32,000 nt of DNA from an uncultured Chloroflexia bacterium (GCA_963704755.1 OY969938.1:4080001-4112000), one strand, 5' to 3'; shown: positions 4,666 through 30,234, counted from the stretch's first letter. The notes: a model not told the origin generated them from the sequence alone. Translations and numbers: made by a program.

Positions 4666-4696
4666 GATTATTTCTCCAATTAAATAATGATCTCCG

Positions 4697-4800
4697 CTAA
4701 CCACTCAGGTTCGGGAGGGGTATGTTGGATGATTTTCGCGGGTTTCGCTTGCGAAAATCATCCAACATACCCTTTTTCTTAGGGATAGCTGAGTGGTTAC
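4697..4800. mobile_element. MITE-like nested-palindrome element, copy a (104 bp)
   Basis: Termini CTAACCACTCAGG / GCTGAGTGGTTAC. Central 21-bp perfect stem 4719-4739 / 4751-4771. Flanking 8-mers GATCTCCG (4689-4696) and GGTCTCCG (4801-4808) match 7/8. Confidence 0.8.
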
Positions 4801-4867
4801 GGTCTCCGTATTGTAAGCCTCACAACACGAAAAATCAAAAAATATTTCCCCGTGGATAATTAATGGT

Positions 4868-6749: not shown

Positions 6750-8096
6750 ATGTCTGTAAAAAAGAATATCGATAATATAACCACGGCTCCAACCGTGGGC
6801 AAGATATCACGCGTCCCCAATACTTTTCGCGCTTTACGGCACCCCAATTATCGTTTATGGTTTGGCGGCCAGACCGTGTCACTGGTGGGATCCTGGATGC
6901 AAACCATGGCCCAGCAAGTGCTGGTCTATGACCTGACCGGGTCGGCGGTGGCCTTGGGGATCGTCAATTTTGTCTATCTCATTCCGGTGATCCCGTTTTC
7001 ATTCTGGGGCGGCTCGATTGCCGACCGGTTCGACAAGCGCAAGGTCATTATTTTTACCCAGATCTGTTTTTCCATTCAGGCCTTAATTATGTGGGCGCTG
7101 ACGGCCACCGGCGTGGTGCAGGTCTGGCATGTTTATCTGCTTTCGTTTATGTTCGGCGTCATCGATGCGATCGACCTGCCGGTGCGCCAGGCATTTACCG
7201 TCGATATGGTCGAGGGCAAAGACGACTTAACCAATGCAATCGGCCTGAACTCGGCCATGTTCAACACGGCCCGGGTGGTGGGGCCGGCTCTGGCCGGGAT
7301 GGTGGTTGCGACGACCGGCGAAGCTAACGCCTTCCTGTGGAACTCGATCACCTTTGCGGCAGTGATCATCAGCCTGTTCTTCATGCGCAACCTGCCCAAG
7401 TCCTCGCACCAGCTTACCGAGAAAGGCCATGCGATTAAGCACATGTCGGAAGGGATGCACTTTGTCCTTTCGAACCGCACCATCACGGTGTTGATCAGCC
7501 TGGTCGCGGTTAGCGCATTTTTGTCGATGCCTTATAACACCCTCATGCCGGTCTTCGCCGAAAACATCCTCAACGGCAGTGCGACCCCGGTGATCAATTT
7601 CTTCTGCCGCTCGGGGAGCGGCATGCTCACCTGCCAGTCCCCGGAGGCGCTGCCCCTGGGCATTCTGCTGGCTGCGGTAGGGATCGGGGCGGTGATTTCG
7701 GCCCTGGTGGTGGCCTCGATGGACGAATCGGCCAGACGCGGGCGGATGCTGACTGTTGGCAATATCCTTTTCCCGGTGGTGTTGATCTTCTTTGCCTGGT
7801 CGAAATCTTTTGTTTTCTCGACCCTCGCGATGGTAGTGGTGGGCTTCAGCTTTGTGATGCAGAACGCCCTGGCCAACACCTTGCTGCAAATCGTCGCACC
7901 GGACGAGCTGCGCGGCCGGATCATGAGCTTTTATACCATGACCTTCCAGGTGACCATGCGCATGGGCGGCTTGCAGGCCGGCTACGTGGCCGACTGGCTA
8001 GGCGCTCCAATTTCGGTGGGGGTGGGGGCGATCGTATCGTTGTTCTACGGCGTTTTCGTCGCTTTCCGCTATCCCAAGGTGCGGAACCTAAAGTAA
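6750..8096 (+). CDS. MFS transporter (EntS / transmembrane-secretion-effector-like)
   Basis: 448 aa and highly hydrophobic, with about 12 predicted TM segments. N-terminal FRALRHPNYRLWFGGQTVSLVGSWMQ and loop GGSIADRFDKRKV are typical of this MFS subgroup. Confidence 0.85.
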   Translation: MSVKKNIDNITTAPTVGKISRVPNTFRALRHPNYRLWFGGQTVSLVGSWMQTMAQQVLVYDLTGSAVALGIVNFVYLIPVIPFSFWGGSIADRFDKRKVIIFTQICFSIQALIMWALTATGVVQVWHVYLLSFMFGVIDAIDLPVRQAFTVDMVEGKDDLTNAIGLNSAMFNTARVVGPALAGMVVATTGEANAFLWNSITFAAVIISLFFMRNLPKSSHQLTEKGHAIKHMSEGMHFVLSNRTITVLISLVAVSAFLSMPYNTLMPVFAENILNGSATPVINFFCRSGSGMLTCQSPEALPLGILLAAVGIGAVISALVVASMDESARRGRMLTVGNILFPVVLIFFAWSKSFVFSTLAMVVVGFSFVMQNALANTLLQIVAPDELRGRIMSFYTMTFQVTMRMGGLQAGYVADWLGAPISVGVGAIVSLFYGVFVAFRYPKVRNLK

Positions 8097-8102
8097 AAGA
8101 TC

Positions 8103-8213
8103 GTTGCTACTCAGGCCCATTCGGAAATCAGGGGTGTTTTTATTATTTTTCGCGTGCGAAGTACACGAAAAATAATAAAAACACCCCTCTTTTTGCGGTA
8201 GCTGAGTAGTTGC
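8103..8213. mobile_element. MITE-like nested-palindrome element, copy b (111 bp)
   Basis: Termini GTTGCTACTCAGG / GCTGAGTAGTTGC. Central stem 8131-8156 / 8164-8187. Perfect 8-bp direct repeats AAAAGATC at 8095-8102 and 8214-8221. The left TSD overlaps the MFS stop codon (8094-8096). Confidence 0.9.
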
Positions 8214-8440
8214 AAAAGATCTATATTTCCATTAGCATCGAACGTAGCGATGCCAGAAGGATCCTGATATTATTTGCCGGATCCACTGCCTACCGGATGA
8301 CCCTCCAGGCGTATTTAAGGTACGCATAACGCCCCTCTGAAACAGGCAATATGTCCATACAAAACCGGGCTAGCGGCTGTATCTTCTGCTAAAAAGAGCC
8401 CCTTGCAGGAACGGATTTTCGCTACCTGGTGTCCCACTAA

Positions 8441-9388
8441 CTAATTGTTTCGATATAGTTCAAGTGTATTTGTCAGGTTTTCGACGAGCAATTTTCTTAA
8501 TTCCTGTGGTTCAAGGATTTCGGCCTCATGGCCGAAAGTTGCAATTAAGGATGCGATATAAGGATATTCACGTTTAGAAATCTTCTGGTGTAAAATGCCG
8601 ATATTTTTATCTTCCCAAACAATTCCTGAAAACTGAAAAAAGGTGTTTGGAAAATCTCGGACTGCTTTTCGGCTGATCCGTAACACGAGCTCTACAAAAT
8701 CTTCGGCAGATAGGTCACTCCTATGTTCCAACCATTGGGCCATCGTTAGGAACTCGATATTGCTAATCTCTCCCTCTTGAAGACTCAATACCCTGTCCAC
8801 CCTGAAAAGATAAATGCGTTCATGTTCCAAGTCATAGGCAGGAAAATACCAATATCCGTTTTCGGAATATATCCCAAGGGGGATGGCTCTTTTGTTTTTA
8901 TTGCGATCCAAAGAATCATAACGGAATAATAATATCTGTTTTGCTATGGAAGCTCGAAAAACGGATTTAAGATAAGGGCTTTTTTCTGCTCGGCGAGGAA
9001 CCTTCATGAGTATATGTTCATGAAAGCTATTTAATTTTTCCTTTAGAGGATTAGAAACCCGGGCCAAGAGTTTATTGATTACTTCGTCAATTTCGGCTTC
9101 ATAAGGTATTTCTTGATATTGCTTCAGCGATTCATAAGTGAAAATAATCGAGGCTGTTTCTTCCTCATTAAAAGAAATAGGCGGAAGCATTTCACCATGA
9201 ATCATGCTATATCCACCATTTCTCCCAACTTCTGAGTAAAAAGGGACACCCAAAGCGCTAAGGTCCAACAGGTCCCTTTGAATCGTGCGTAGGCTGACAC
9301 CAAAATCATTGGCCAACTCCTTCGCTGTAAAAAAATTCTTTCGATTGATATATAACCAGATATCAATCAACCGGTTCATTTTAGACAT
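8441..9388 (-). CDS. YafY-type transcriptional regulator (HTH + WYL domain)
   Basis: N-terminal HTH FTAKELANDFGVSLRTIQRDLLDLSALGVPFYSEVGRNGGY. Central WYL-like region ...PLGIYSENGYWYFPAYD..RIYLFRVDRV. The start is taken at ATG 9388 (MSKMNRLID), inside the longer ORF. Confidence 0.85.
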   Translation of the reverse strand: MSKMNRLIDIWLYINRKNFFTAKELANDFGVSLRTIQRDLLDLSALGVPFYSEVGRNGGYSMIHGEMLPPISFNEEETASIIFTYESLKQYQEIPYEAEIDEVINKLLARVSNPLKEKLNSFHEHILMKVPRRAEKSPYLKSVFRASIAKQILLFRYDSLDRNKNKRAIPLGIYSENGYWYFPAYDLEHERIYLFRVDRVLSLQEGEISNIEFLTMAQWLEHRSDLSAEDFVELVLRISRKAVRDFPNTFFQFSGIVWEDKNIGILHQKISKREYPYIASLIATFGHEAEILEPQELRKLLVENLTNTLELYRNN

Positions 9389-9407
9389 AATTGAATCCCT
9401 TCGTAAT

Positions 9408-9428
9408 TTACGACATAAAGTGTCGTAA
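9408..9428. promoter_or_regulatory. Candidate operator in the divergent WYL-regulator / hydrolase promoter region
   Basis: 8-bp inverted repeat TTACGACA-taaag-TGTCGTAA, plus direct repeats TCGTAATT at 9401 and 9423. It lies between the start codons at 9388 (-) and 9475 (+). Confidence 0.3.
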
Positions 9429-9474
9429 TTCAAGTGTACAATTTGATTATCATTATGTAAAGGAGGTGATTTGA

Positions 9475-10347
9475 GTGGCTGAAAATAAAAATGTACCGGT
9501 CTTCATCCACAAGAGCGTCGTTGCCAAAGGTATTCCCATTCATGTTGTCGAAGCTGGCCAGGCAACGGAACCGGCAATCCTTTTTATTCATGGCTGGCCG
9601 ACAAATTGGCGGGAATTTTCACCTGTTATGCAGATGCTTTCCGATGAGTATCACGTAATTGCCGTTGATATCCCCGGCATCGGAGAATCAAAGGTCCCGG
9701 TTCAGTCCTATAGCAAGCAAAATATCGCAATCTATATCCTTGCGTTGATCGAGGCGATGAATTTAAGGGATGTCACCCTTGTTGGCTGCGATTGTGGCGG
9801 ACAAATCGTTTATGCCTGTTTAAAAATATCTCCAGACTGCGTTTCCCATGCCGTTATTATGAATGTTGTGATCCCAGGAGTAGAGCCGTGGAACGAGGTG
9901 AAGAACAATCCATACATATGGCATTTCAAATTCCATTTAGTGCCCGAATTACCTGAAAAACTGGTTTCTGGAAGAGAGCTTGAGTATTTTTCATATTTCT
10001 ATAATGTTCTGGCAGGTAAAGGAAATCGAATATCTGACGAGTATAGAGCCTGGTTTTCTCGAGCATACTCGAATTTGGACGCCTTGAAAGCCGGATTCGA
10101 TCTATATCGGTGTTTTCAAACAGACGAAAATGACAATATACAATTAAAAAACGTGCCTGTTCCAATGCCCGTTCTCTACCTGCGTGGAGGAGATGAGCCT
10201 GTTAATATTGAAACCTATGAGGAAGGCTTTAAGGAAAATGGCATCGAAAATATAGAAACAGCAATTATTGAGCATTGTGGACATTTTTCGGCCATAGAAC
10301 AGCCTGAAGAAGTCGCTTTAATGATCCGTAAATTTATAAAAAGGTAA
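9475..10347 (+). CDS. Alpha/beta-fold hydrolase (epoxide hydrolase / haloalkane dehalogenase-like)
   Basis: GTG start 8 nt after AGGAGGTGA. HGWP oxyanion motif (LFIHGWPTNW), nucleophile elbow GCDCGG, C-terminal HCGHF. The stop codon TAA (10345-10347) is supplied by the terminus of MITE copy c. Confidence 0.85.
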   Translation: MAENKNVPVFIHKSVVAKGIPIHVVEAGQATEPAILFIHGWPTNWREFSPVMQMLSDEYHVIAVDIPGIGESKVPVQSYSKQNIAIYILALIEAMNLRDVTLVGCDCGGQIVYACLKISPDCVSHAVIMNVVIPGVEPWNEVKNNPYIWHFKFHLVPELPEKLVSGRELEYFSYFYNVLAGKGNRISDEYRAWFSRAYSNLDALKAGFDLYRCFQTDENDNIQLKNVPVPMPVLYLRGGDEPVNIETYEEGFKENGIENIETAIIEHCGHFSAIEQPEEVALMIRKFIKR

Positions 10348-10454
10348 CTGCACAGCCCAGAGGGAAGAAACCCGAATTTGAGGTGTATTCGTGGGCTTCG
10401 CCCACGAATACACCTCAAATTCGGGGACTTTTTCACAGGGTCCTGAGTAGTTAC
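10344..10454. mobile_element. MITE-like nested-palindrome element, copy c (111 bp)
   Basis: Termini GTAACTGCACAGCC / CCTGAGTAGTTAC. Perfect 26-bp stem 10371-10396 / 10400-10425 with loop TTC. Perfect 8-bp direct repeats ATAAAAAG at 10336-10343 and 10455-10462. Confidence 0.9.
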
Positions 10455-10479
10455 ATAAAAAGTAAATAAGGAGACGAAT

Positions 10480-10983
10480 ATGAAAATCACATCTGCTCCA
10501 TTACCCCATGGCAAACAAACCGTTACCCCCTACATCATCATCAAAGACGCGGCGCAGTTCATTGACTTCCTGAAACGCGCATTTGACGCATTTGAATTTG
10601 GCCGTGTAGAAAATTCTGACGGCAGTATTGGTCACGCTGAGGTGCGGGTTGGCAGTTCCACCCTCATGATCGCAGATGGCAAGAAAGAATGGCGCGACAC
10701 GCCTGTTTTCTTGAGCATTTATGTAGACGATGCCGATGAGGTTTTTGCACAAGCGCTTAAAGCCGGCGCTGCCCAGGTGACTGAAATGACCACCTTCAAC
10801 ATCCTCGGAGACCGAACCGGGCGAATACGTGACCCGTTTGGCAACATTTGGTGGATTCAAACTCATCTTCGGGATGTATCTCCTGAAGAGACGATGGAAT
10901 TATTCCAAAATTCTGCCGAGATGGCTGTCATGACGAAAATGCAGGATACCTTCACCCAAGAAATGGACCGGTGGTTGCTATAA
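10480..10983 (+). CDS. VOC (glyoxalase/bleomycin-resistance/PhnB-like) family protein
   Basis: SD AAGGAGA lies 6 nt before the ATG. ..VTPYIIIKDAAQFIDFLKRAF...GHAEVRVGSSTLMIADG...DPFGNIWWI is typical of the PhnB-like VOC fold. Confidence 0.75.
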   Translation: MKITSAPLPHGKQTVTPYIIIKDAAQFIDFLKRAFDAFEFGRVENSDGSIGHAEVRVGSSTLMIADGKKEWRDTPVFLSIYVDDADEVFAQALKAGAAQVTEMTTFNILGDRTGRIRDPFGNIWWIQTHLRDVSPEETMELFQNSAEMAVMTKMQDTFTQEMDRWLL

Positions 10984-11145
10984 AATGTGGTTCGCCGCAT
11001 TTATATAACACGAATTTTCAATCGGACCTGGAGATGAGAGATGGGCGACAGAAACGCGCGTCGATCACCCATTTTTAGGATCGGTTGACCAAATTTCAGA
11101 ATCCAGCTTTGAAGGGTGGTCATACGCGAAATGTATTCTTTCCTG

Positions 11146-11255
11146 GTAACTGCTCAGACTGGTTAAGAAGTTGAGAGTGTTTTAAAGATTTTCGTGTGCG
11201 AAGCACACGAAAATCTTTAAAACACTCTCTTTCAATCGGATAGCTGAGTAGTAAC
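11146..11255. mobile_element. MITE-like nested-palindrome element, copy d (110 bp)
   Basis: Termini GTAACTGCTCAGAC / AGCTGAGTAGTAAC. Perfect 26-bp stem 11173-11198 / 11204-11229 with loop CGAAG. Flanking 8-mers CTTTCCTG (11138-11145) and CTATCCTG (11256-11263) match 7/8. Confidence 0.85.
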
Positions 11256-11407
11256 CTATCCTGTTCTTCCTTTGGATTTGTTCTCTGTTTGAGCCAGAAA
11301 AGGTAAAGGGATTTCCTGGATGAGCGCCGCTAATCCAATTCGGACCGGCGGTGCTTGCATTTAATACCACGTTGCAGTGTAAAATAGACGGGTTGAAGAG
11401 GTAATTC

Positions 11408-13294
11408 ATGAACATTCAAGGACCCTGGTTCAAAGACGATCAAGGCCGCACCTTGCTGCTGCGGGGTGTGAACCTGGGTGGCTCAAGCAAGATACCGGTC
11501 GTGCCGGATGGTGCTACTTACCAATCCGCGGGATTTTTCAATCACCGCCAGGTTTCGTTTGTCGGCCGGCCCTTCCCGCTGGCCGAAGCGGACGAACATT
11601 TCCGCAGGTTGAAATCCTGGGGGATGACTTTTTTGCGTTTTCTGGTCACCTGGGAGGCGATCGAACACGCCGGCCCGGGCCAGTACGATATGGAATACCT
11701 GGATTACGTTCACGCCATTTTGCGCAAGGCCAACGATTATGGCATTCAGGTATTTATCGACCCGCACCAGGACGTGTGGAGCCGTTTTTCGGGCGGCGAT
11801 GGGGCCCCGGGTTGGACGCTCGAGGCAGCCGGGTTCGATCTGCAACGTTTGAGCGAAACCGGCGCGGCGATTGTCCACCAGGTGCACGGCGATCCCTTCC
11901 CGCGTATGATCTGGCCGTCCAACAGCGCCAAGCTGGCCTCGTCGACCATGTTTACCCTGTTTTTTGCCGGCAATGATTTTGCCCCTGGGCGTACGCCGAT
12001 CGGCGTGCCGGGTGAATCGATCCAGGATTATCTCCAGCGCCATTACGTCCGGGCCATCCAGGTGCTGGCTGAACGCCTGAGTGACCTGCCCAACGTGATC
12101 GGCTACGATACGCTCAACGAGCCCCTGCCGGGTTATATCGGCTGGAAGGACGCCGCCAGGCGCGACGGGGTGCTGCAAACCGGCCCCAGCCCTACGCCTT
12201 ACCAATCCATGCTCCTGGGCAGCGGTTACCCACAGGTGGTGGATGTGATGGAGCGGCAGGTGTTTGGCATCCGCCGGGTGGGCCGTAAGCTGCTCAACCC
12301 GGGCGGGTTGAGCGCCTGGCAGGCGGGCAGTGCGTGTCCCTGGCGCGAGCAGGGCATCTGGGAAGTGGACAGCAGCGGAAAACCGTATTTAATCAAGCCG
12401 GAATATTTCAGGCGCATCGCCGGGCACGAAGTGAATTTCGAGAACGATTATTTGCGTCCATTTACCACCAAAGTAGCCGAGGCGGTCCATGCCATCCGGC
12501 CCGAAGCGCTGATTTTCCTGGAGGGGGAGGCCTTTCACGAACCCCCTTGTTGGGATCGCGAACAACGAGCACAAGTAGTGTTTACCCCGCACTGGTACGA
12601 TGCATACGTATTGTTTTTCAAGGCCTTCAGCCCCTGGCTGGGAGTGGATGTTCGTGGTGGTGGAAAACTGGTAGCCGGAGAGCAGGCCATCCGGCGTTCT
12701 TTCGCGTCCCAAATTGGCACGTTTAAGGAAATGTCGCGCAAATGCCTGGGGAACGCCCCGGTCTTTCTGGGAGAGTTTGGAACGCCCTTTGACCTGGATC
12801 ACAAACACGCTTACCACAATGGCGATTTCAGCCGCCAGGCGCAGGCTTTGAACCGTACTTTTCGGGCCTTGGAAGATAATCTGGTCAGCTACACCATCTG
12901 GAATTACAACCCCGATAACAACAACCGCCGCGGTGACCTGTGGAATGACGAGGACCTGTCGATCTTCAGCCGCGATCAGCAGCACGACCAGGGCAACATC
13001 AACTCAGGCGGCCGCGCACTGCAAAGCATCCTGCGGCCTTTCCCGCGCAGCACGGCCGGGGAGCCGCTCTTCCTGGAATTCGATTATCGCACAGGGCGAA
13101 TGGAATACCGTTTCCGGCACGCTCCGGCGATCGATGCACCCACCGAGTTCTATCTGCCGGCCCTGCAATATCCGCGTGGCTGCCGGGTGACGGTCAGCGA
13201 TGGGGATTATCGCCTGGACCTGGCCAATCAAACCATGACGTATCGTCATACTGACCGTTTGGCCGAGCATAAGATCGTTTTGCAAAGAATTTAG
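11408..13294 (+). CDS. Glycoside hydrolase family 5 protein (endoglycoceramidase/cellulase-like)
   Basis: 628 aa. LRGVNLGG.., FLRFLVTWEAIEH, VFIDPHQDVWSRFSGGDGAPGW, and the catalytic-acid motif GYDTLNEP. Confidence 0.8.
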   Translation: MNIQGPWFKDDQGRTLLLRGVNLGGSSKIPVVPDGATYQSAGFFNHRQVSFVGRPFPLAEADEHFRRLKSWGMTFLRFLVTWEAIEHAGPGQYDMEYLDYVHAILRKANDYGIQVFIDPHQDVWSRFSGGDGAPGWTLEAAGFDLQRLSETGAAIVHQVHGDPFPRMIWPSNSAKLASSTMFTLFFAGNDFAPGRTPIGVPGESIQDYLQRHYVRAIQVLAERLSDLPNVIGYDTLNEPLPGYIGWKDAARRDGVLQTGPSPTPYQSMLLGSGYPQVVDVMERQVFGIRRVGRKLLNPGGLSAWQAGSACPWREQGIWEVDSSGKPYLIKPEYFRRIAGHEVNFENDYLRPFTTKVAEAVHAIRPEALIFLEGEAFHEPPCWDREQRAQVVFTPHWYDAYVLFFKAFSPWLGVDVRGGGKLVAGEQAIRRSFASQIGTFKEMSRKCLGNAPVFLGEFGTPFDLDHKHAYHNGDFSRQAQALNRTFRALEDNLVSYTIWNYNPDNNNRRGDLWNDEDLSIFSRDQQHDQGNINSGGRALQSILRPFPRSTAGEPLFLEFDYRTGRMEYRFRHAPAIDAPTEFYLPALQYPRGCRVTVSDGDYRLDLANQTMTYRHTDRLAEHKIVLQRI

Positions 13295-13403
13295 GATCTA
13301 CTCAGCTGCTGGAAGAGAGAGGTGTGTTTCAATGTTTTTCGCGTGCGGAGCACACGAAAAACATTGAAACACACCTGATTTCCGTACTGGCCTGAGCCGG
13401 AAC
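13294..13403. mobile_element. MITE-like nested-palindrome element, copy e (about 110 bp, termini degenerate)
   Basis: Left arm GGATCTACTCAGC, right arm CCTGAGCCGGAAC. 26-bp stem 13320-13345 / 13351-13376 with one mismatch and loop CGGAG. Only a weak flanking repeat (GAATTTAG vs GAAATTTG). It starts at the last base of the GH5 stop codon. Confidence 0.7.
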
Positions 13404-13417
13404 CTTGAAATTTGGTA

Positions 13418-13446
13418 TTGTATTAGAACATGCGTTCCTGTATAAT
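13418..13446 (+). promoter_or_regulatory. Sigma-70-like promoter for the PP2C gene
   Basis: TTGTAT (13418-13423), 17-nt spacer, TATAAT (13441-13446). It lies just upstream of SD AAAGGAG and ATG 13468. Confidence 0.45.
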
Positions 13447-13467
13447 GTTTTCAAAAGGAGAGCTGCT

Positions 13468-14508
13468 ATGGATCCTTATGATTTTGACCAGATGAAAGCC
13501 AAATTAATGGAAAAACGGCAACAGGTTTCCGACTTCATCGAGACCACTCCCCCAGATCAAAAAGAAAAATTCCTTGGCCCGGCCAAAGATAATGCGTTGG
13601 AAACCCATTTGCAAGTGCTGGACGATGCCATCTATGAGGCGGAAGAGAAAACCCTGGGTTCCTGTGTGGTTTGCCAGGGTTTTATCGAGGAAGAACTGCT
13701 GGAGGCGGATTACACATCCCACGTTTGTTTGACCCACCTGTCCGAAGACGAGCAGCGCAGCCTGGAATATGAGCTGGAGCTTTCCCAGACTGTTCAAAAG
13801 GCTTTCCTGCCGCAGCAGGCCCCGGCTTTCCCAGGCCTGGAGGTGGCCGTGTTCAACCAGCCGGCCCAAATCGTCAGCGGCGATTTTTACGATTTCTTCC
13901 AATTCGGCGATGATTCGTTTGGACTGGCCATCGCGGACGTGGCCGGCCATGGGGTATCCTCTGGTTTAATCGTGGCCAGCCTGCAAACGGCGCTGCGCAC
14001 CCTGGCCCCAATGTACACTGATCCTGCCGCCCTGGTGGACCACCTCAACCGCTTTTTCATTCACAACCTCAATTTCACTACCTTCGTGACCCTGTTTGTT
14101 GGGCGGCTGGTACTGGCGCAGAACCAGTTGGCGTTTACCAATGCCGGCCATAACCCGCCCTTACTGCACCGGGCGCACCTCACAACAGGCGATCACCTGA
14201 CCTGGTTAAATCCCACCGGGCCGGCGATTGGCCTGGTAGAGAATGCCCAATATCGCTCAGGGTCGGTAGAAATCTCGGCCGGGGATTTGCTTATCCTGTA
14301 TACCGATGGGGTCACCGAGACCACCAACCCTGCGCTGGAATTGTTCGGCCAGGATCGTCTCGCACAGGTCATTTGCCGGCAGGCGGGTTTACCGGTCCGT
14401 GAGCTGGTGCAAACGATCCGCAGTGAATTATTTACCTTTAGCGGCGAGAGTCCATTGGCCGACGACACGACCATCGTGGTCAACCGGTTCTCGACGGAGA
14501 GGGTCTAA
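13468..14508 (+). CDS. PP2C/SpoIIE-family serine phosphatase with N-terminal DksA/TraR-type zinc-finger module
   Basis: ATG 13468 follows AAAGGAG. N-terminus is coiled-coil-like and carries C66-x2-C69-x17-C87-x2-H90. The C-terminal PP2C domain has SGDFYDFF, LAIADVAGHGVSSG, TNAGHNPPLL and LILYTDGVTE. Confidence 0.8.
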   Translation: MDPYDFDQMKAKLMEKRQQVSDFIETTPPDQKEKFLGPAKDNALETHLQVLDDAIYEAEEKTLGSCVVCQGFIEEELLEADYTSHVCLTHLSEDEQRSLEYELELSQTVQKAFLPQQAPAFPGLEVAVFNQPAQIVSGDFYDFFQFGDDSFGLAIADVAGHGVSSGLIVASLQTALRTLAPMYTDPAALVDHLNRFFIHNLNFTTFVTLFVGRLVLAQNQLAFTNAGHNPPLLHRAHLTTGDHLTWLNPTGPAIGLVENAQYRSGSVEISAGDLLILYTDGVTETTNPALELFGQDRLAQVICRQAGLPVRELVQTIRSELFTFSGESPLADDTTIVVNRFSTERV

Positions 14509-14540
14509 AAGTTTTCGTCAGCCGCCTCCGTAGCATCATC

Positions 14541-14664
14541 CCGGTAAGCGCAAAGAATCCCCCCAGCCCCCCTTACGGAAAGGGGGTAAGAAAGCACAAC
14601 TCGATGGGGGGAGTTGCCCTTTGCCCCCCTTTTAAAAGGGGGACTGGGGGGATTCTTGAACCGG
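14541..14664. repeat. Complex nested palindrome rich in C6/G6 homopolymer runs
   Basis: Outer arms AAGAATCCCCCCAGCCCCCC (14553-14572) and GGGGGACTGGGGGGATTCTT (14638-14657) pair 19/20. Two inner hairpins share the same stem: CCCCCTT-ACGGA-AAGGGGG and CCCCCTTTTAAAAGGGGG. It lies between convergent genes. Confidence 0.7.
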
Positions 14665-14789
14665 CCTGGAAACCCGCCAACTGGATGACGTACTTTTTTT
14701 TTGTGACCACCCAGGCTTCCGTTAAAAGAACTCCGGCATAGAGGTATTACTTTCCAGGCAGTCCAGTTACTATATTTTAGGACCGGCGA

Positions 14790-15425
14790 TTAGATCACCC
14801 TGAGGGCTCCTTGCCAGGGGTGCTCCAACCCGGATTGCATGCCGACCCACACCAGAGCCAGCCCTTCGAGCTGGCGGGCGCGTTTCAGCGAGCCGGCATC
14901 GATCGCGTGCATCCCGCCGGACTCGATCAGGCGGGCCAGGCTGGCTTTGGCGCCAGCATCATCACCGGCCAGGAAGATATCGACCTTTTCGCCGCCCACC
15001 TGCCTGGCCGCAAGAGTGGCGGCAAAGATGGTGTTGAAGGCCTTGATCACATTTGCTTCCGGCACAACTTTTGCGATTTCTTCAGCGGCGGAAGTATTGA
15101 CGAACTTCAGGTCAGCCATAACCGAGGTAAACAAGTTGCTCAGATCGACCAGAATTTTTCCGCTCAATTGGCTTTGGTGAGCCTGAACGGTTTCTTTCAC
15201 CGCCGGAAAAGGGATGCTGCTGATAACGATCTCATCCTGAAGGGGATCGCCTAATTTATTGATTTTCAACGCGGCGTCATTTTTGGTTTGGGCCGCGAAC
15301 TGGCCGGTCAACTCGGGCGCTTTTTCCGCGGTGCGGGTAAACAGGGTGACGGTGTTGCCGCCTGCGAGAAAACGTGCGACCAACCCCTTGGCCATATTGC
15401 CGATTCCGAGTATGGATACGTTCAT
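14790..15425 (-). CDS. npdG: NADPH-dependent F420 reductase-like (F420_oxidored family NADP oxidoreductase)
   Basis: N-terminal Rossmann motif VSILGIGNMAKGL. Length of about 210 aa and the central/C-terminal pattern (..IKAFNT.., ..FLAGDDAGAK..) are typical of the family. cofD/cofC lie nearby. Confidence 0.65.
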   Translation of the reverse strand: MNVSILGIGNMAKGLVARFLAGGNTVTLFTRTAEKAPELTGQFAAQTKNDAALKINKLGDPLQDEIVISSIPFPAVKETVQAHQSQLSGKILVDLSNLFTSVMADLKFVNTSAAEEIAKVVPEANVIKAFNTIFAATLAARQVGGEKVDIFLAGDDAGAKASLARLIESGGMHAIDAGSLKRARQLEGLALVWVGMQSGLEHPWQGALRVI

Positions 15426-15814
15426 GATGTACTCCTGTGTTTGTGTCCAGTAATGTTATGGGCTGAAATTGTTGGGCGAGGAGCTCGGCACAAGTGATGG
15501 TTGCCGGACTTCTTGTTACAACGTGTGTTTACTAGGCGTCAATTGTTGCTTTTGTATGGCGTAACCGTCCGGTGAAGAATATTCAATACTCGATAGTTCA
15601 ACATTGACGGAAAAGCAACAAAGATCGGTTTTTGTCGGTCATTCTTTTGGAGGATTTAAGAGTGATCTCGCCGGGCGGGGTAAATTCCGCCGGGAGCTTT
15701 GTTATATAATCAAAATACGCCGGCTAAAAATAGCCGGATTGGGAAAAATCCACAACTTTTTCAGGAATTGCTGGAAAACGATGGTTTCATATGGGCTAAA
15801 TTGGAGGTCGGAAA

Positions 15815-16918
15815 ATGCCTGCCGCTCAATTATTTCGCGCCGAGGACTTGAAGGATTACATCATTCGTTTCTTTACCCAATTGAACGTTCCAGAGGATCA
15901 CGCCCGTATCGCGGCTGAAATCCTGATTTCGGCCGACCTGCGCGGTGTCAGCTCGCACGGGATTATCCGCCTGAACACCTATTACGGCAGCCGCATTCTC
16001 AAAGGGCTAATCGATCCCTCTTCGCCGTTCCGCATCGAGCGCGAGACGCCGGCTACACTGCTGGTGGACGGGGGCAATGGACTGGGCATGGTGGTGGGGT
16101 ACAACGCTATGCTGCGCTGTATCGACAAGGCGCGCGAATCCGGGGTGGCCTTCGTGACCGCCCACAACAGCAACCACTTCAGCATCGCCGGCTATTACGC
16201 CATGATGGCCTTGCCGTACGATATGGTCGGGATGTGTTTTACCAACGCACAGCCCCTGGTTGCCCCCACTTATGGAAGGACAGCCCTGATCGGTACCAAC
16301 CCGATTTCTGTGGCAGCCCCGACATTAAGTGAGAAACCGTTCGTGTTGGATATGGCCACCAGTATTGTGCCGATCGGTAAAGTGACGGTCTATGATAAGG
16401 CCGGCGAGAAAATTCCGGAAGGCTGGGGGGTGGATAAGGACGGCAAGGTGACTACCGACCCGAAGGCGGTATTGCAAGGCGGCGCCCTAATGCCGCTGGG
16501 CGGCACCGACCTGATGCGTGGCTACAAGGGTTATGGGTTGGGCTTGATGGTCGACATCTTCTCCGGAGTGCTATCCGGGGCGGCTTTTGGTGCCCACGTG
16601 GGACGCAGCGGCCAGAATTTGCCGGCCAATGTAGGCCATTTTTTCGCGGCGGTGCGTATCGATGCCTTCCGCGACCCGCAGGCTTTCAAGGCCGATATGG
16701 ATGACATGATCCGTACCCTCAAAGAGGCGCCTAAGGCCGCCGGCCAGGAGCGTATCTATATCCATGGCGAGAAAGAGTTTGAGCTGGCCGAAAAATATAC
16801 TCGTGAGGGTGTGCCCCTGCTGACGGAAGTGGTCAAGGGATTGAAGGAGGCCGGCCAGACGGTTGGGGTACCTTTCGACCTGGAGGTGGTTGGCGAGGTT
16901 AGCGGCGAAGAGGGCTGA
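15815..16918 (+). CDS. Ldh2-family (malate/L-lactate/sulfolactate-type) dehydrogenase
   Basis: SD GGAGG lies 8 nt before the ATG. LRGVSSHGIIRLNTYY, AHNSNHFSIAGYY, TNPISVAAP and GYKGYGLGLMVDIFSG are characteristic of Pfam Ldh_2 proteins. Confidence 0.85.
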   Translation: MPAAQLFRAEDLKDYIIRFFTQLNVPEDHARIAAEILISADLRGVSSHGIIRLNTYYGSRILKGLIDPSSPFRIERETPATLLVDGGNGLGMVVGYNAMLRCIDKARESGVAFVTAHNSNHFSIAGYYAMMALPYDMVGMCFTNAQPLVAPTYGRTALIGTNPISVAAPTLSEKPFVLDMATSIVPIGKVTVYDKAGEKIPEGWGVDKDGKVTTDPKAVLQGGALMPLGGTDLMRGYKGYGLGLMVDIFSGVLSGAAFGAHVGRSGQNLPANVGHFFAAVRIDAFRDPQAFKADMDDMIRTLKEAPKAAGQERIYIHGEKEFELAEKYTREGVPLLTEVVKGLKEAGQTVGVPFDLEVVGEVSGEEG

Positions 16919-17011
16919 TGCAAGCGTGGGTTCCCGTCGGGTTTACTTCCGTTTTCCTTCCTCCGGCGTTACAATCCAGGCAAACCGACCCGGGAGGGAG
17001 TAGCAAACCCA

Positions 17012-17983
17012 TTGGAACCTGATCTTGATTTTTCTGGACTGCATGTAGCCGCCCTGGCGGGTGGTGTGGGCGGGGCGCGCCTGGCCCAGGGATTGGCGGC
17101 GCTGCTGCCTGCGGAACAATTGAGCATTATCGTCAATACCGGTGATGATTTCGAACACCTGGGCCTGGCAATTTGCCCGGACCTGGATACGGTTACATAT
17201 ACCCTGGCCGGGCTTTCCAACCCCGCAGCCGGCTGGGGGCTGGCGGACGAGACCTATCACTGCCTGGAGGCGCTCGGCAAGCTCGGCGGCCCGGATTGGT
17301 TCCGCCTGGGCGATCGCGACCTGGCCACTCACCTGGTGCGCACCAGCCTGCTCCGCTCCGGCATGCGCCTGACCCAGGCTACCGGCCAGATTACCCAGGC
17401 ATTGGGTGTGCGCCATGCCATCCTGCCGATGTGTGATATGCCGGTCCACACGCGGGTGATCACCGACCAGGGCGAGCTGGATTTTCAGGAGTATTTCGTC
17501 CATTTCGGCTGGCAGCCACGGCTGACCGGCCTGCGCTGGGAGGGGATCGAAGAAGCCCGGCCTTCGGCCGAGGTGCTGGCGGCTCTAGACCAGGCCGACC
17601 TGGTGGTGATGTGCCCCTCGAATCCCTTTGTCAGCATCGACCCAATTCTGCTGCTGCCGGGGATCCGCCCGCTGCTGCAAAAGCGGTTAGTGGTGGCAGT
17701 CAGCCCGATTTTAGGCGGGAAGACGGTCAAGGGACCGGCGGCCAAGATGTTCCAGGAACTGGGCATCGAGCCCTCCGCGCCGGCGGTGGCGGAGCATTAC
17801 CAGGACGTGCTGGACGGCTTTGTACTGGATGAGATCGACGCAGCTTTGCAGGCTGCGGTGGAGACTTTAGGGATGGCAGCCTGCGCGATACCTACCCTGA
17901 TGTCCGGGCTGGACGAGCGTAAGGCGGTGGCACAGGGGGTTTTGGAGTTCGCAAAAAGTATAAAGAGCGGGAAGCGCGGATGA
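17012..17983 (+). CDS. cofD: 2-phospho-L-lactate (or EPPG) transferase CofD/FbiA
   Basis: [17 protein letters not shown] glycine-rich N-terminus, NTGDDFEH.., [16 protein letters not shown] start at 17012 after GGGAGGGAG, and the start is uncertain. TGA overlaps the cofC ATG. Confidence 0.85.
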
Positions 17984-18585
17984 AAATTTGGGCAGTCGTG
18001 CCGGTCAAGCCCGGGACCGCCTCCAAGTCTCGCCTGGCGGGCGTGCTCTCGGCTGACCAACGGGCACGGCTGGCCGAAAGCCTGCTGGAGCATACCCTGG
18101 GTGTGCTGGCCGATTGGCCGGCTCTGGCCGGGGTGCTGCTGGTCACGGCCGGTGCGGAAATGCGCCAAATTGGGCTCCGTTACGGGACGGAGGTGTTGTG
18201 TGAGCCAGACCTGCCCGGTTTGAACCACTCCCTGGAGCGCGCCTGCCGGGATGTCGCTGCACGGGGAGCCGAGGCCATCCTGGTGGTGCCGGCGGATTTG
18301 CCCCTGTTGAGCCGCGAGAGCTTGAATGAAGTGATCGCGGCCGCGGTCACACCGCCGCTGGTGGTCATCGCCCCGGACCAGTTAGGCAATGGGACCAATA
18401 TCTTGATGCTCGCGCCGATCTCGGTTATTCCATTCCGCTTCGGGCCGGGGTCGCTGGCAAAACACACCCTGGCTGCGCAGGAAGCCGGCGCCGCCCTGGT
18501 GCGGGTCGATTCGCCGGCGCTCAGCTTTGACGTTGACCGGCCGGAGGATCTGGATCGCCTGGAGGCGTTGGGTATTTTCCGCTGA
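17980..18585 (+). CDS. cofC: Phospholactate/phosphoenolpyruvate guanylyltransferase CofC/FbiD
   Basis: ATGA overlap with cofD. WAVVPVKPGTASKSRL.., ..LVVPADLPLL.., GTNILML.., F.FGPGS..H. Confidence 0.85.
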   Translation: MKIWAVVPVKPGTASKSRLAGVLSADQRARLAESLLEHTLGVLADWPALAGVLLVTAGAEMRQIGLRYGTEVLCEPDLPGLNHSLERACRDVAARGAEAILVVPADLPLLSRESLNEVIAAAVTPPLVVIAPDQLGNGTNILMLAPISVIPFRFGPGSLAKHTLAAQEAGAALVRVDSPALSFDVDRPEDLDRLEALGIFR

Positions 18586-18815
18586 GCCACGTTGGGGAAT
18601 AAGAAGATTACACCGCAGAGACGCGGAGAGCGCTGAGAAGATTATTTGAAAAGAGCCCGCAGGTTGGGTTCGGGCCTATCGAGGAAATTGGCCGGACATC
18701 GGGCGTTTGTCTGCCAGGAAATTGCCCGAACCCAACAAGTTCACATAGGTGAAAACCGATCTGCGGTATGGTAGCCCGGCTTTCGAAGCCGGCGCGTGCT
18801 ATCTTTAGAAAATTA

Positions 18816-18927
18816 GTAACCGCTCAGATAAGTGCGCAAAGAGAGGGTATTTTTATTATTTTTTGCGCGCAAAGCGCGCAAAAAATAATAAAAATACCCT
18901 AATCCTCTGCAGTAGTTGAGTAGTTTC
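18816..18927. mobile_element. MITE-like nested-palindrome element, copy f (112 bp)
   Basis: Termini GTAACCGCTCAGAT / AGTTGAGTAGTTTC. Perfect 27-bp stem 18844-18870 / 18874-18900 with loop AAA. Perfect 8-bp direct repeats GAAAATTA at 18808-18815 and 18928-18935. Confidence 0.9.
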
Positions 18928-18951
18928 GAAAATTACTAGAAAGAAGCTGGT

Positions 18952-20718: not shown

Positions 20719-20761
20719 TTTGGATATACGTGGCGGGGCGGCTTCGCCACGTATATCCAAA
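20719..20761. repeat. Solitary strong hairpin in the divergent GH13 / nusA intergenic region
   Basis: 16-17-bp perfect stem TTGGATATACGTGGCG (20720-20735) / CGCCACGTATATCCAA (20745-20760). The loop carries GCTTCGC, the complement of GCGAAGC. It is preceded by an A/T tract and bracketed by an imperfect outer inverted repeat GAGAGTGTTGAA (20679-20690) / TTCAACACCCTC (20785-20796). Confidence 0.6.
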
Positions 20762-30120: not shown

Positions 30121-30170
30121 GTTACTACTCCGGTTAGTTCGGAAATTCGGGGTGTTAGTCGAGTAGTTAC
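30121..30170. mobile_element. MITE-like element, internally deleted copy i (50 bp)
   Basis: GTTACTACTCCGG..TTCGGAAATTCGGGGTGTTA / GTCGAGTAGTTAC. Both termini are kept, together with the left spacer and the first 8 nt of the central stem. Flanking 8-mers AAGGATGT (30113-30120) and AAAGATGT (30171-30178) match 7/8. Confidence 0.8.
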
Positions 30171-30180
30171 AAAGATGTTT

Positions 30181-30234
30181 AAATTATGATCCCGTGCGGT
30201 GAAACCCACGGGATCATAATTTAATATTTTTTTT
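30181..30234. terminator. Bidirectional terminator between convergent thyX-like and thioredoxin-like genes
   Basis: Perfect 16-bp stem AAATTATGATCCCGTG (30181-30196) / CACGGGATCATAATTT (30207-30222), followed by AATATTTTTTTT on the plus strand. Confidence 0.75.

What the first reader, a model, noticed from the sequence alone, without database searches (positions are those of the whole stretch)
8131..18900. The central hairpins differ between copies, but both arms change together, and the loops carry GCGAAGC-type caps
The central stems are alignable between copies. Copy b is GGGGTGTTTTTATTATTTTTCGCGTG, copy f is AGGGTATTTTTATTATTTTTTGCGCGC, copy d is GAGAGTGTTTTAAAGATTTTCGTGTG, copy e is AGGTGTGTTTCAATGTTTTTCGCGTG, and copy c is CCCGAATTTGAGGTGTATTCGTGGGC. 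They differ at many positions. Within each copy the partner arm carries the matching change, giving 26/26 bp in copies c and d, 27/27 bp in copy f, and 21/21 bp in copy a. Comparing b with f, G to A on the left arm is mirrored by C to T on the right arm at two positions. This is compensatory covariation over about 25 bp, far more than a terminal inverted repeat needs for transposase binding. The apices are GNA-type. GCGAAGC sits at 11198-11204 in copy d. Its complement sits at 10395-10401 in copy c and at 20741-20747 in the solitary hairpin. Copy b has GCGAAGT, copy e has GCGGAGC, and copy f has GCAAAGC. d(GCGAAGC) is known as an unusually stable DNA mini-hairpin. Together this points to selection on a folded single-stranded DNA or RNA form, or to hairpin-templated self-correction of the palindrome.
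Basis: partly seen in the sequence, partly recalled or inferred. Interest (0 to 1): 0.65.

Follow-up and report, generated by a model that had tools for sequence, protein, structure and literature searches.

The report
IS66-type MITEs with self-correcting hairpin cores
The hairpins are the cores of small non-coding jumping elements (MITEs of the IS66/ISBst12 transposon family), and their two arms change together most likely because one arm is recopied from the other during DNA replication, so this is a known kind of element.

Summary
Six hairpins have stems of 22-27 bp that are perfect or carry 1-2 mismatches. Their sequences differ between copies, yet the arms always mirror each other, and most apices are GC-GNA-GC.

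Each hairpin lies inside a 104-112-bp element with 12-bp termini GTAACYRCTCAG...CTGAGYRGTTAC and an 8-bp target-site duplication. A seventh copy has lost its hairpin. The same termini and duplication length occur in single-ORF IS66-family (ISBst12-group) insertion sequences. These are ISDge4 in the literature and three real ISs I checked. A termini-only scan found 51 further loci in several phyla, and 33 of the 51 elements have intact duplications.

Across 18 hairpin-type copies, 436 of 440 stem cells are Watson-Crick and every stem position varies. Wobble intermediates are almost absent. Arms diverge about as fast as flanks. The 3-nt loop is flipped between near-identical copies. Arm homogenisation plus spacer inversion is the published signature of replication template switching at quasi-palindromes.

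I therefore favour DNA-level self-correction over RNA-level selection. Selection for a GNA-capped ssDNA hairpin is not excluded. This is a new member of a known kind, of moderate interest.

The parts
4697..4800 (+). MITE copy a: termini CTAACCACTCAG / CTGAGTGGTTAC; flank duplication GATCTCCG (4689-4696) / GGTCTCCG (4801-4808)
4718..4772 (.). central hairpin of a, 22/22 bp, 11-nt loop
8103..8213 (+). MITE copy b: termini GTTGCTACTCAG / CTGAGTAGTTGC; 8-bp duplication AAAAGATC (8095-8102 and 8214-8221), which overlaps the MFS stop codon
8131..8187 (.). central hairpin of b, 25/27 bp, loop GAA (apex GCGAAGT)
10344..10454 (+). MITE copy c: termini GTAACTGCACAG / CTGAGTAGTTAC; duplication ATAAAAAG (10336-10343 and 10455-10462). 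Same subfamily as L010, L024 and L052 in other Anaerolineae MAGs
10371..10425 (.). central hairpin of c, 26/26 bp, loop TTC (complement of GCGAAGC), flipped relative to its relatives
11146..11255 (+). MITE copy d: termini GTAACTGCTCAG / CTGAGTAGTAAC; duplication CTTTCCTG / CTATCCTG
11173..11229 (.). central hairpin of d, 27/27 bp, apex GCGAAGC
13294..13403 (-). MITE copy e, in the opposite orientation (the spacers are asymmetric). Decayed termini GGATCTACTCAG / CTGAGCCGGAAC; duplication no longer recognisable; its first base completes the GH5 stop codon
13320..13376 (.). central hairpin of e, 26/27 bp, apex GCGGAGC on the + strand
18816..18927 (+). MITE copy f: termini GTAACCGCTCAG / TTGAGTAGTTTC; duplication GAAAATTA (18808-18815 and 18928-18935)
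18844..18900 (.). central hairpin of f, 27/27 bp, apex GCAAAGC (not GNA)
30121..30170 (+). MITE copy g: same termini (GTTACTACTCCG / TCGAGTAGTTAC) and left spacer, but the hairpin is deleted; duplication AAGGATGT / AAAGATGT

Best explanation
The hairpins are the cores of seven copies (six full, one internally deleted) of a 104-112-bp non-autonomous transposable element (MITE).

Anatomy: 12-bp terminal inverted repeats GTAACYRCTCAG ... CTGAGYRGTTAC, two non-identical and only partly complementary spacers of about 15 nt, and a central palindrome of 22-27 bp per arm, usually with a 3-nt loop.

The termini and the 8-bp target duplication are those of single-ORF IS66-family (ISBst12-group) insertion sequences. 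The elements are presumably moved in trans by such a DDE transposase encoded elsewhere in the genome (inferred; none is in the window).

The arms change together because the palindrome evolves in concert at the DNA level. A mutation in one arm is either erased or copied to the other arm when a nascent strand folds back, or switches across the fork, during replication. This is template switching at quasi-palindromes, which also occasionally inverts the loop. The GC-GNA-GC apex, an exceptionally stable DNA mini-hairpin, probably nucleates the fold-back (inferred).

Shown here: the element anatomy, the family assignment of the ends, the covariation, the near-absence of wobble states, and the loop flips. 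Inferred: the template-switch mechanism itself, the role of the GNA cap, and any effect on neighbouring genes.
For: MITE identity:
- Six copies have an 8-bp flank duplication with 0-1 mismatch: the five full copies a, b, c, d, f and the internally deleted copy g.
- No ORF lies in the elements and no transposase is in the window.
- ISDge4 (IS66 family, ISBst12 group) has TIRs GTGACTACTCAGCA / GTAACTGCTCAGCA and an 8-bp direct repeat (PMC12898284).
- Three real single-ORF IS66-family ISs have the same ends and 8-bp duplications: pHTA426 (Pfam DDE_Tnp_IS66, E = 1.9e-64), Clostridium estertheticum and Nostoc.
- A termini-only pattern gave 51 loci against about 5 expected. Of the 51 elements, 33 have a duplication with at most 1 mismatch, where the chance per element is 0.0004.

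Concerted evolution of the arms:
- 436 of 440 stem cells are Watson-Crick in 18 copies from 4 subfamilies, and all 27 positions show at least 2 pair types. Column shuffles give 49.6%.
- 22 of 27 pairs change on both sides (77 cells). Only 2-3 cells changed on one side while keeping a wobble pair.
- Arm identity between copies (0.64-0.92) is close to flank identity (0.56-0.85), so the arms evolve nearly as fast as the flanks yet stay complementary.
- The loop is inverted relative to the asymmetric flanks in L008a (AAA) versus L008b (TTT), whose flanks are 97% identical. It is also inverted in c (TTC) versus L024, L010b and L052b (GAA).
- Arm homogenisation plus spacer inversion is the stated outcome of template switching (PMC8604942 abstract; PMC5941160).
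- Copies with decayed termini and lost duplications keep their stems (e: 26/27; L010a: 25/25).
- Only GNA triloops form the mini-hairpin, with stability A > G > C > T (PMC13037366). The observed loops are GAA 7, GGA 3, GCA 1 and AAA 4.
Against: - Most copies still have intact target duplications. Much of the arm perfection could therefore be inherited from perfect master copies rather than restored in place.
- When imperfect subfamily members (L014, L013b, L017) are included, arm mismatches (11/487) are only about 3-fold rarer than duplication mismatches (10/160). This is my hand count, chi-square about 6, p about 0.02.
- The conservation of G and A in the loop, with variation at N, looks like selection for a folded form, which template switching alone does not predict.
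- No replication-direction or strain-level data are available.
- The source genome outside the 32 kb, and hence its transposase, could not be examined.
- The T-rich subfamily (b, d, e, f) was found in no other public sequence, so it rests on four copies.
Confidence: 0.6

Rival explanations
1. RNA-level selection. The hairpins act in transcripts as intrinsic or bidirectional terminators, or as 3'-end stabilisers, and compensatory mutations are selected to keep the RNA stem.
For: All copies are intergenic and mostly sit just after stop codons. The left spacer is A/G-rich and the right spacer is T/C-rich. Copies a, b and c have a T-run after the stem, and the consensus scan lists a, c and d as terminator-like.
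Against: - Only 2-3 cells changed on one side while keeping a wobble pair, against 77 double changes, and many swaps are G-C to T-A, which have no wobble path.
- Perfect Watson-Crick stems of 27 bp far exceed what a terminator needs.
- Element orientation relative to the upstream gene is mixed (b, c, d co-oriented; a, e opposite), and d, e and f lack a proper T-run.
- The loops are of the DNA mini-hairpin type (GNA triloop), and they flip between near-identical copies.
- There is no Rfam match.
Confidence: 0.12
2. Selection at the level of the mobile element. A GNA-capped perfect ssDNA hairpin (or cruciform) is needed or helpful for mobilisation or replication of these MITEs. Only lineages with perfect stems multiply, and the inserted copies are simply young.
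For: G and A of the loop are kept while N varies (GAA, GGA, GCA), in the order of mini-hairpin stability. Most duplications are intact, so copies are young. The hairpin-bearing subfamilies are the ones seen in multiple copies in Anaerolineae.
Against: - Elements with the same termini in Proteobacteria, Bacteroidota and other phyla have no long perfect hairpin.
- In the Nostoc IS the transposase ORF runs into the right terminus, leaving no room for a hairpin. Only short subterminal stems were seen by eye in the other two ISs, so the transposase does not need one.
- Decayed copies e and L010a keep their stems.
- Near-identical copies differ by a both-arm change plus a loop flip, which is hard to obtain by two-step selection in so little time.
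Confidence: 0.18
3. No maintenance at all. The copies are very recent descendants of a handful of master elements that happen to be perfect palindromes, for example each created once by a fold-back replication error.
For: Duplications have 0-1 mismatch in most copies. Some young copies (L014, L013b, L017; duplication 8/8) already have imperfect arms, so perfection is not universal.
Against: - The six full copies in the window all differ from one another (arm identity 0.59-0.85 across the five pairwise-scored copies a, b, d, e, f; c belongs to a different subfamily), and the same subfamily in other genera differs by compensated changes only.
- The spacers are not palindromic, so a single fold-back origin of each whole element is excluded.
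- In the perfect-stem set, arm mismatches are 3/431 against duplication mismatches 8/144, p = 0.001 (this set is ascertainment-biased).
Confidence: 0.07
4. REP/REPIN elements moved by a RAYT (Y1 HUH) transposase.
For: They are extragenic palindromic repeats, a GTAG tetranucleotide lies inside CTGAGTAG, and compensatory changes are common in REPIN hairpins (PMC3116915).
Against: The elements have 8-bp target duplications and DDE-type terminal inverted repeats identical to IS66-family ends. No Y1 transposase is in the window.
Confidence: 0.02

Closest known systems
IS66-family insertion sequences of the ISBst12 group (single transposase ORF): ISDge4 of Deinococcus geothermalis, the ISGka4-family copy on pHTA426, and IS66-family copies on Clostridium estertheticum and Nostoc plasmids
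   Same: Terminal repeats GT(A/T)AC(T)(A/G)C(T/C)CAG at both ends and an 8-bp target duplication. The left and right ends show the same TG/TA asymmetry as ISDge4.
   Different: The window elements have no transposase and are 104-112 bp instead of about 1.4-1.8 kb. Their interior is a long perfect palindrome that I did not find in the three ISs inspected.
Bacterial MITEs in general (e.g. Correia/NEMIS, ERIC, MITEPsy1/2 in PMC3189936)
   Same: Short, non-coding, with terminal repeats and target duplications, intergenic, multi-copy, and able to fold.
   Different: These derive from the IS66/ISBst12 group, and I found no paper describing such MITEs. The centre is a perfect GNA-capped palindrome that differs between copies, whereas the spacers are not palindromic.
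REPINs / REP-RAYT (PMC3116915)
   Same: Miniature palindromic mobile DNA in which compensatory changes on the two sides of the hairpin are common.
   Different: REPINs are moved by a Y1 HUH transposase through ssDNA and leave no DDE-type duplication. The elements here have 8-bp duplications and IS66-type ends.
Quasi-palindrome correction by replication template switching (Ripley model; PMC5941160; PMC8604942)
   Same: Homogenisation of inverted-repeat arms together with inversion of the spacer, and a preference for perfect inverted repeats over evolutionary time.
   Different: It was described for scattered short inverted repeats and reporter genes. Here it would act on the cores of a multi-copy mobile element, with arms of 19-32 bp.
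d(GCGNAGC) DNA mini-hairpins (PMC13037366; PMC3201870)
   Same: An exact GCGAAGC, GCGGAGC or GCGCAGC heptamer sits at the apex of 9 of 15 triloop copies. Loop frequencies follow the stability order A > G > C.
   Different: The known natural examples are priming or origin signals in ssDNA phages and plasmids. Here they cap long stems inside MITEs, and four copies have the non-mini-hairpin loop AAA.

Membership tests
MITE derived from IS66-family (ISBst12-group) insertion sequences | Terminal inverted repeats matching the ends of the autonomous IS | tested here: met
   The window consensus is GTAACYRCTCAG / CTGAGYRGTTAC. Compare ISDge4 GTGACTACTCAGCA / GTAACTGCTCAGCA, pHTA426 GTATCTATTCAG / CTGAATAGTTAC, C. 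estertheticum GTTACTGCTCAG / GTGAGTAGTAAC and Nostoc GTAACTGCCCAG / CTAGGCAGTTAC.
MITE derived from IS66-family (ISBst12-group) insertion sequences | 8-bp target-site duplication | tested here: met
   Window: b, c and f match 8/8; a, d and g match 7/8; e is lost. Outside the window, 33 of 51 elements have at most 1 mismatch. The three ISs checked also have 8-bp duplications.
MITE derived from IS66-family (ISBst12-group) insertion sequences | Small, non-coding, multi-copy, dispersed | tested here: met
   The elements are 104-112 bp. There are seven copies in 32 kb, all intergenic, and several loci elsewhere hold additional copies.
MITE derived from IS66-family (ISBst12-group) insertion sequences | A cognate transposase in the same genome | not testable with these tools
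   No transposase is in the window or in the fetched loci (phmmer).
MITE derived from IS66-family (ISBst12-group) insertion sequences | Evidence of mobility (empty orthologous sites) | tested here: inconclusive
   Relatives L002, L005 and L007 lack elements at the MFS-GH5 junction. They are only about 67% identical in protein, and the locus also differs by a 3.1-kb insert.
REP/REPIN-RAYT | Insertion without a DDE-type target duplication; association with a Y1 (RAYT) transposase | tested here: not met
   8-bp duplications are present, and no Y1 transposase domain occurs in any window ORF scanned.
Intrinsic (Rho-independent) terminator | Stem-loop immediately followed by a U-run on the transcribed strand | tested here: inconclusive
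   A T-run follows the stem in a, b and c on the element's + strand only. Copies d, e and f are weak or lack one. For copy a the T-run is on the non-transcribed strand.
Intrinsic (Rho-independent) terminator | Transcript 3' ends map to the hairpin | not testable with these tools
   No expression data are available.
Quasi-palindrome template-switch correction (mechanism class) | Homogenised arms together with spacer (loop) inversion | tested here: met
   99% of stem cells are Watson-Crick although every position varies. Loops are flipped in L008a versus L008b and in c versus L024, L010b and L052b. The definition comes from PMC8604942 and PMC5941160.
Quasi-palindrome template-switch correction (mechanism class) | Dependence on replication, fork direction and exonucleases | not testable with these tools
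   This needs genetics or strain-level comparisons.
d(GCGNAGC) mini-hairpin | GC-GNA-GC heptamer | tested here: met
   The heptamer is exact in c, d and e. Copy b has GCGAAGT (closing pair broken) and f has GCAAAGC (not GNA). Including relatives, 9 of 15 are exact and 11 of 15 have GNA loops.
Any Rfam RNA family | Covariance-model match at the gathering threshold | tested here: not met
   There are 0 matches in the whole window.

The most novel reading that the evidence does not exclude
The GNA-capped perfect palindrome is not merely a by-product of template switching. It would be a selected single-stranded-DNA module of this MITE lineage. It could, for example, let the element be recognised, primed or protected on ssDNA at the replication fork, like the mini-hairpin signals at phage G4 and RSF1010 ssi origins. 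That would add a hairpin-dependent step to IS66-family mobilisation. The unexplained G+T richness of every 5' arm would then be part of that signal.
Probability: 0.13. Interest if true: 0.6.

Novelty: new member of a known kind. Interest (0 to 1): 0.4.

Why it matters
- It turns a puzzling set of covarying hairpins into an identifiable mobile element. This is an IS66/ISBst12-type MITE superfamily that shares one 12-bp terminus across Chloroflexota, Proteobacteria, Bacillota, Bacteroidota and other phyla. I could not find it described in the literature.
- It is a clean natural example of DNA-level concerted evolution that mimics RNA-style compensatory covariation. Scans that use covariation (R-scape and similar) to call structured RNAs would score these stems very highly.
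- The features that reveal the DNA origin are perfect Watson-Crick pairing with almost no wobble, double-transversion swaps, loop flips and target duplications. These are reusable filters.
- A genome with many such copies would give a multi-copy read-out of the rate and direction of template switching in an uncultured lineage.

Tried and rejected
- A frame-plus-apex pattern (CTCAG..TTCGYG-N9-CRCGAA..CTGAGTAG) matched b, d and e in the window. It found nothing in 185,579 species genomes and one non-palindromic chance hit in metagenomes (L001).
- An exact-protein look-up of a window gene found no public contig.
- Syntenic loci of the closest relatives (L002-L007) have no such elements and only one ordinary GC-rich hairpin.
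- I looked for full-length ISs between distant terminus pairs and by phmmer with the pHTA426 transposase in all fetched loci. None was found.
- MAFFT alignments of whole elements were not symmetric, and RNAalifold recovered only the termini and the apex. I used loop-anchored counts and a hairpin-only alignment instead.
- The 'duplication clock' test is significant on the perfect-stem set, but that set is ascertainment-biased. The inclusive version is a hand count, because the script machine was lost.
- A composite transposon bounded by b and d was rejected, because each has its own duplication.
- REPIN/RAYT was rejected on the duplications and the IS66-type ends.
- The Streptomyces IS66 copy (L062) showed no matching termini within 3 mismatches, so not all relatives share the terminus.


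Full report
OBSERVATION

- a: 4718-4772, 22/22 bp, 11-nt loop.
- b: 8131-8187, 25/27 bp.
- c: 10371-10425, 26/26 bp.
- d: 11173-11229, 27/27 bp.
- e: 13320-13376, 26/27 bp.
- f: 18844-18900, 27/27 bp.

The apex heptamers are as quoted. Folded as single-stranded DNA, the six elements give -31 to -39 kcal/mol with z-scores of -7.5 to -11.3, and none of 200 shuffles folds as well.

ANATOMY

About 15-17 nt outside the stem on each side lie 12-bp terminal inverted repeats, consensus GTAACYRCTCAG on the left and CTGAGYRGTTAC on the right.

Immediately outside these termini the flanking 8 bp are repeated in direct orientation:
- b: AAAAGATC / AAAAGATC.
- c: ATAAAAAG / ATAAAAAG.
- f: GAAAATTA / GAAAATTA.
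- a: GATCTCCG / GGTCTCCG.
- d: CTTTCCTG / CTATCCTG.

The two spacers are not each other's complement, which gives the element a polarity. By that polarity e is inverted relative to the others. A seventh copy, g (30121-30170), has the termini, the left spacer and the first six stem bases, but has lost the rest of the hairpin. It too has a 7/8 duplication.

All copies are intergenic. The window otherwise holds housekeeping genes (nusA-infB-rbfA-truB-ribF, thyX, cofC/cofD and others) and no transposase. No Rfam family and no tRNA is present. The window belongs to an Anaerolineae-like chromosome. Its GH5 protein sits on a 4.87-Mb contig, and the nearest relatives are about 67% identical (Bellilinea MAG).

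FAMILY

A literal search for the terminus in the paper library returned a description of ISDge4 of Deinococcus geothermalis. It belongs to the IS66 family, ISBst12 group, and has one 449-aa transposase, TIRs GTGACTACTCAGCA / GTAACTGCTCAGCA and an 8-bp direct repeat (PMC12898284).

I checked this against real sequences.
- The IS66-like transposase on Geobacillus plasmid pHTA426 (Pfam DDE_Tnp_IS66, E = 1.9e-64) is bounded by GTATCTATTCAG ... CTGAATAGTTAC and the duplication GACGAGTT.
- A single-ORF IS66-family copy in Clostridium estertheticum is bounded by GTTACTGCTCAG ... GTGAGTAGTAAC with CAAAATTT / CAAAATTA.
- One in Nostoc is bounded by GTAACTGCCCAG ... CTAGGCAGTTAC with ATTTTACG / ATTTTACG.

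The window elements are therefore MITEs carrying the ends of this IS group.

A scan of one genome per species with a termini-only pattern, with nothing specified in the interior, returned 51 loci. I expect about 5 by chance (my calculation: 42 bits, 17 gap lengths, two strands). The loci come from many Chloroflexota MAGs and also from Polaromonas and Paenibacillus isolates and from Rhodoferax, Piscirickettsiaceae, Bacteroidota, Verrucomicrobiota and Spirochaetota MAGs. Of the 51 elements, 33 have a duplication with at most one mismatch, where the chance per element is 0.0004. The duplicated sites are 67% A+T.

The interiors differ completely between lineages. Long perfect palindromes are a feature of the Anaerolineae-type subfamilies: L009, L010, L024, L032, L039 and L052, plus the Brevefilum copies L008, L022 and L055. 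One Chloroflexia family also has them. Window copy c belongs to the same subfamily as L010, L024 and L052 from two other MAGs.

HOW STRONG IS THE COVARIATION

I anchored 18 hairpin-type copies at the loop.
- 436 of 440 stem cells are Watson-Crick, 2 are G-T and 2 are other mismatches.
- All 27 positions carry at least two different Watson-Crick pair types.
- Shuffling partners within columns gives 49.6% paired (maximum 55.5%), and sliding the partner gives 35-47%.

The pair-counting tool on a symmetric 11-copy alignment gives similar results.
- 97.6% of cells are paired. The unpaired cells are mainly padding at the stem base.
- 22 of 27 pairs change on both sides, in 77 cells.
- 0 of 500 shuffles reach any of the five measures.

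WHAT DRIVES IT

Several observations point to a DNA-level process rather than stepwise compensatory selection.
- Wobble intermediates are nearly absent. Two or three cells changed on one side while keeping a wobble pair, against 77 double changes. Many swaps are G-C to T-A, which have no wobble path.
- Between copies the arms are about as diverged as the flanks, although the flanks include the constrained termini. For L008a versus L055, flank identity is 0.85 and arm identity 0.89. In the T-rich group flanks are 0.59-0.73 and arms 0.64-0.85. Stems under two-step compensatory selection should evolve much more slowly than unconstrained sequence.
- The 3-nt loop is inverted relative to the asymmetric flanks. 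L008a has AAA and L008b has TTT, although their flanks are 97% identical and their stems also differ by a both-arm change. Copy c has TTC where its relatives L024, L010b and L052b have GAA. Copy e has TCC where other copies have GGA.
- Homogenisation of inverted-repeat arms together with spacer inversion is exactly what template switching between the arms produces (PMC8604942 abstract). Comparative work in Proteobacteria supports preferential correction of imperfect to perfect repeats by this route (PMC5941160).
- Copies whose termini and duplications have decayed keep their stems. Copy e has 5 terminus mismatches, has lost its duplication, and has a 26/27 stem. L010a has 3 terminus mismatches, a duplication at 4/8, and a 25/25 stem. 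By hand, neutral decay at the terminus rate would give about 10 and about 6 mismatched pairs respectively. Some terminus variants may be inherited, which weakens this argument.
- The few mismatches that exist are transitions within five pairs of the loop (b, e, L022). Intramolecular switching cannot correct that region, because those bases prime the fold-back. The sample is tiny, and weak selection near a loop predicts the same pattern.

LIMITS ON THAT INFERENCE

Most copies have intact duplications and so are young. Part of the perfection is therefore simply inherited.
- On the perfect-stem set, duplication mismatches (8/144) exceed arm mismatches (3/431), p = 0.001. That set was chosen for good stems.
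- When I add the imperfect members of the same subfamilies (L014, L013b, L017), the ratio falls to 10/160 versus 11/487. This is a hand count, chi-square about 6, p about 0.02. The script machine was lost.

The excess of paired changes between lineages stands whatever the age of individual copies.

THE APEX

Of 15 triloop copies, 11 read GNA on one strand (GAA 7, GGA 3, GCA 1), and 9 are exact GCGNAGC. The other four read AAA.

Among all 64 GCNNNGC heptamers only GNA forms the extraordinarily stable DNA mini-hairpin, with stability N = A > G > C > T (PMC13037366; the closing-pair dependence is in the abstract of PMC3201870, listed). Variation is concentrated at N while G and A are kept.

This suggests that a folded single-stranded DNA form matters. 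It could matter because it nucleates the fold-back that drives correction, which is my preferred reading, or because the hairpin itself is selected. I cannot separate these two.

RIVALS

- RNA-level selection (terminator or stabiliser) has some support. Three copies have a T-run after the stem, the spacers are A-rich and T-rich, and the scan flags a, c and d. It is contradicted by the wobble deficit, the mixed orientation relative to upstream genes, the length and perfection of the stems, and the loop flips.
- Element-level selection for a hairpin needed in transposition is weakened by two facts. The same termini mobilise hairpin-less interiors in other phyla. The Nostoc IS leaves no room for a hairpin, because its ORF runs into the terminus.
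- REPIN/RAYT is excluded by the duplications and the IS66-type ends. REPINs are nonetheless the closest precedent for compensatory changes in miniature mobile DNA (PMC3116915).

KNOWN OR NEW

MITEs, IS66-family ends, quasi-palindrome correction and GNA mini-hairpins are all established. I found no paper linking ISBst12 or IS66 to a MITE family.

The combination here is a cross-phylum MITE superfamily sharing one terminus, with Anaerolineae subfamilies whose cores behave as self-correcting, loop-flipping palindromes. It appears undescribed. It is a new member of a known kind, not a new kind.

Its practical value is twofold. It warns that covariation-based RNA discovery can be misled by DNA-level concerted evolution. 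It also offers a natural multi-copy reporter of template switching.

Noticed in passing
window 8214-11145: A 3.1-kb block of low G+C (41-45%) encodes a WYL/HTH regulator, an alpha/beta-hydrolase and a glyoxalase-family protein. It lies between the MFS_3 and GH5 genes, which are directly adjacent in relatives L002, L005 and L007. MITE b and d bound it and c lies inside. Each MITE has its own duplication, so it is not a composite transposon.
   Followed up: partly
window 8094-8096, 10345-10347, 13292-13294: Three MITEs touch stop codons. The TAA that ends the hydrolase ORF lies inside the GTAAC terminus of c, so the insertion rewrote the last residues. The first base of e completes the TAG of GH5. 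The duplication of b overlaps the TAA of the MFS gene.
   Followed up: partly
all 19 hairpin-type copies (window a-f; L008-L055): The 5' arm is G+T-rich in every copy (G 190, T 148, A 65, C 53; 74% G+T). On both strands the 5' arm is therefore GT-rich and the 3' arm AC-rich. I have no explanation for this.
   Followed up: no
window 30179-30224: An ordinary terminator-like hairpin (18 bp, 10-nt loop, followed by T8) lies directly after the hairpin-less MITE copy g, between convergent genes.
   Followed up: no
window 14553-14657: An unrelated foldback of about 105 bp has outer inverted repeats AAGAATCCCCCCAG / CTGGGGGGATTCTT and C/G-run sub-hairpins. It lies between the SpoIIE-type phosphatase gene and a convergent oxidoreductase gene.
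   Followed up: no
window 18662-18737: The inverted repeat GGTTGGGTTCGGGC ... GCCCGAACCCAAC, with a spacer of about 47 nt, lies in the same intergenic region just upstream of MITE f.
   Followed up: no
window 20719-20761: The 'solitary hairpin' (17 bp, 9-nt loop containing GCTTCGC) has no termini or duplication and is not a family member. It lies about 175 bp upstream of nusA, in a divergent intergenic region.
   Followed up: partly
L043 320-432 and L051 7648-7760: A Bacillota MAG and a Dehalococcoidia MAG carry an identical 114-bp element of this superfamily. This indicates either recent horizontal transfer or mis-binning.
   Followed up: no
L039 165-274 (also L010 from 6408): A second MITE-like frame has different inverted ends (...GGTTCTTTGGGA). 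It surrounds a 27-bp perfect palindrome whose core resembles the hairpin of L032 from the same MAG. Similar cores may therefore occur in more than one frame.
   Followed up: partly
L019, L020, L023, L044, L054 (HGW-Chloroflexi-1 MAG): Copies with identical termini have interiors that are rearranged or inverted versions of the same segments (GCGTTTTTTGCG, CGAAGCAATC and others). These look like further template-switch or inversion products.
   Followed up: no
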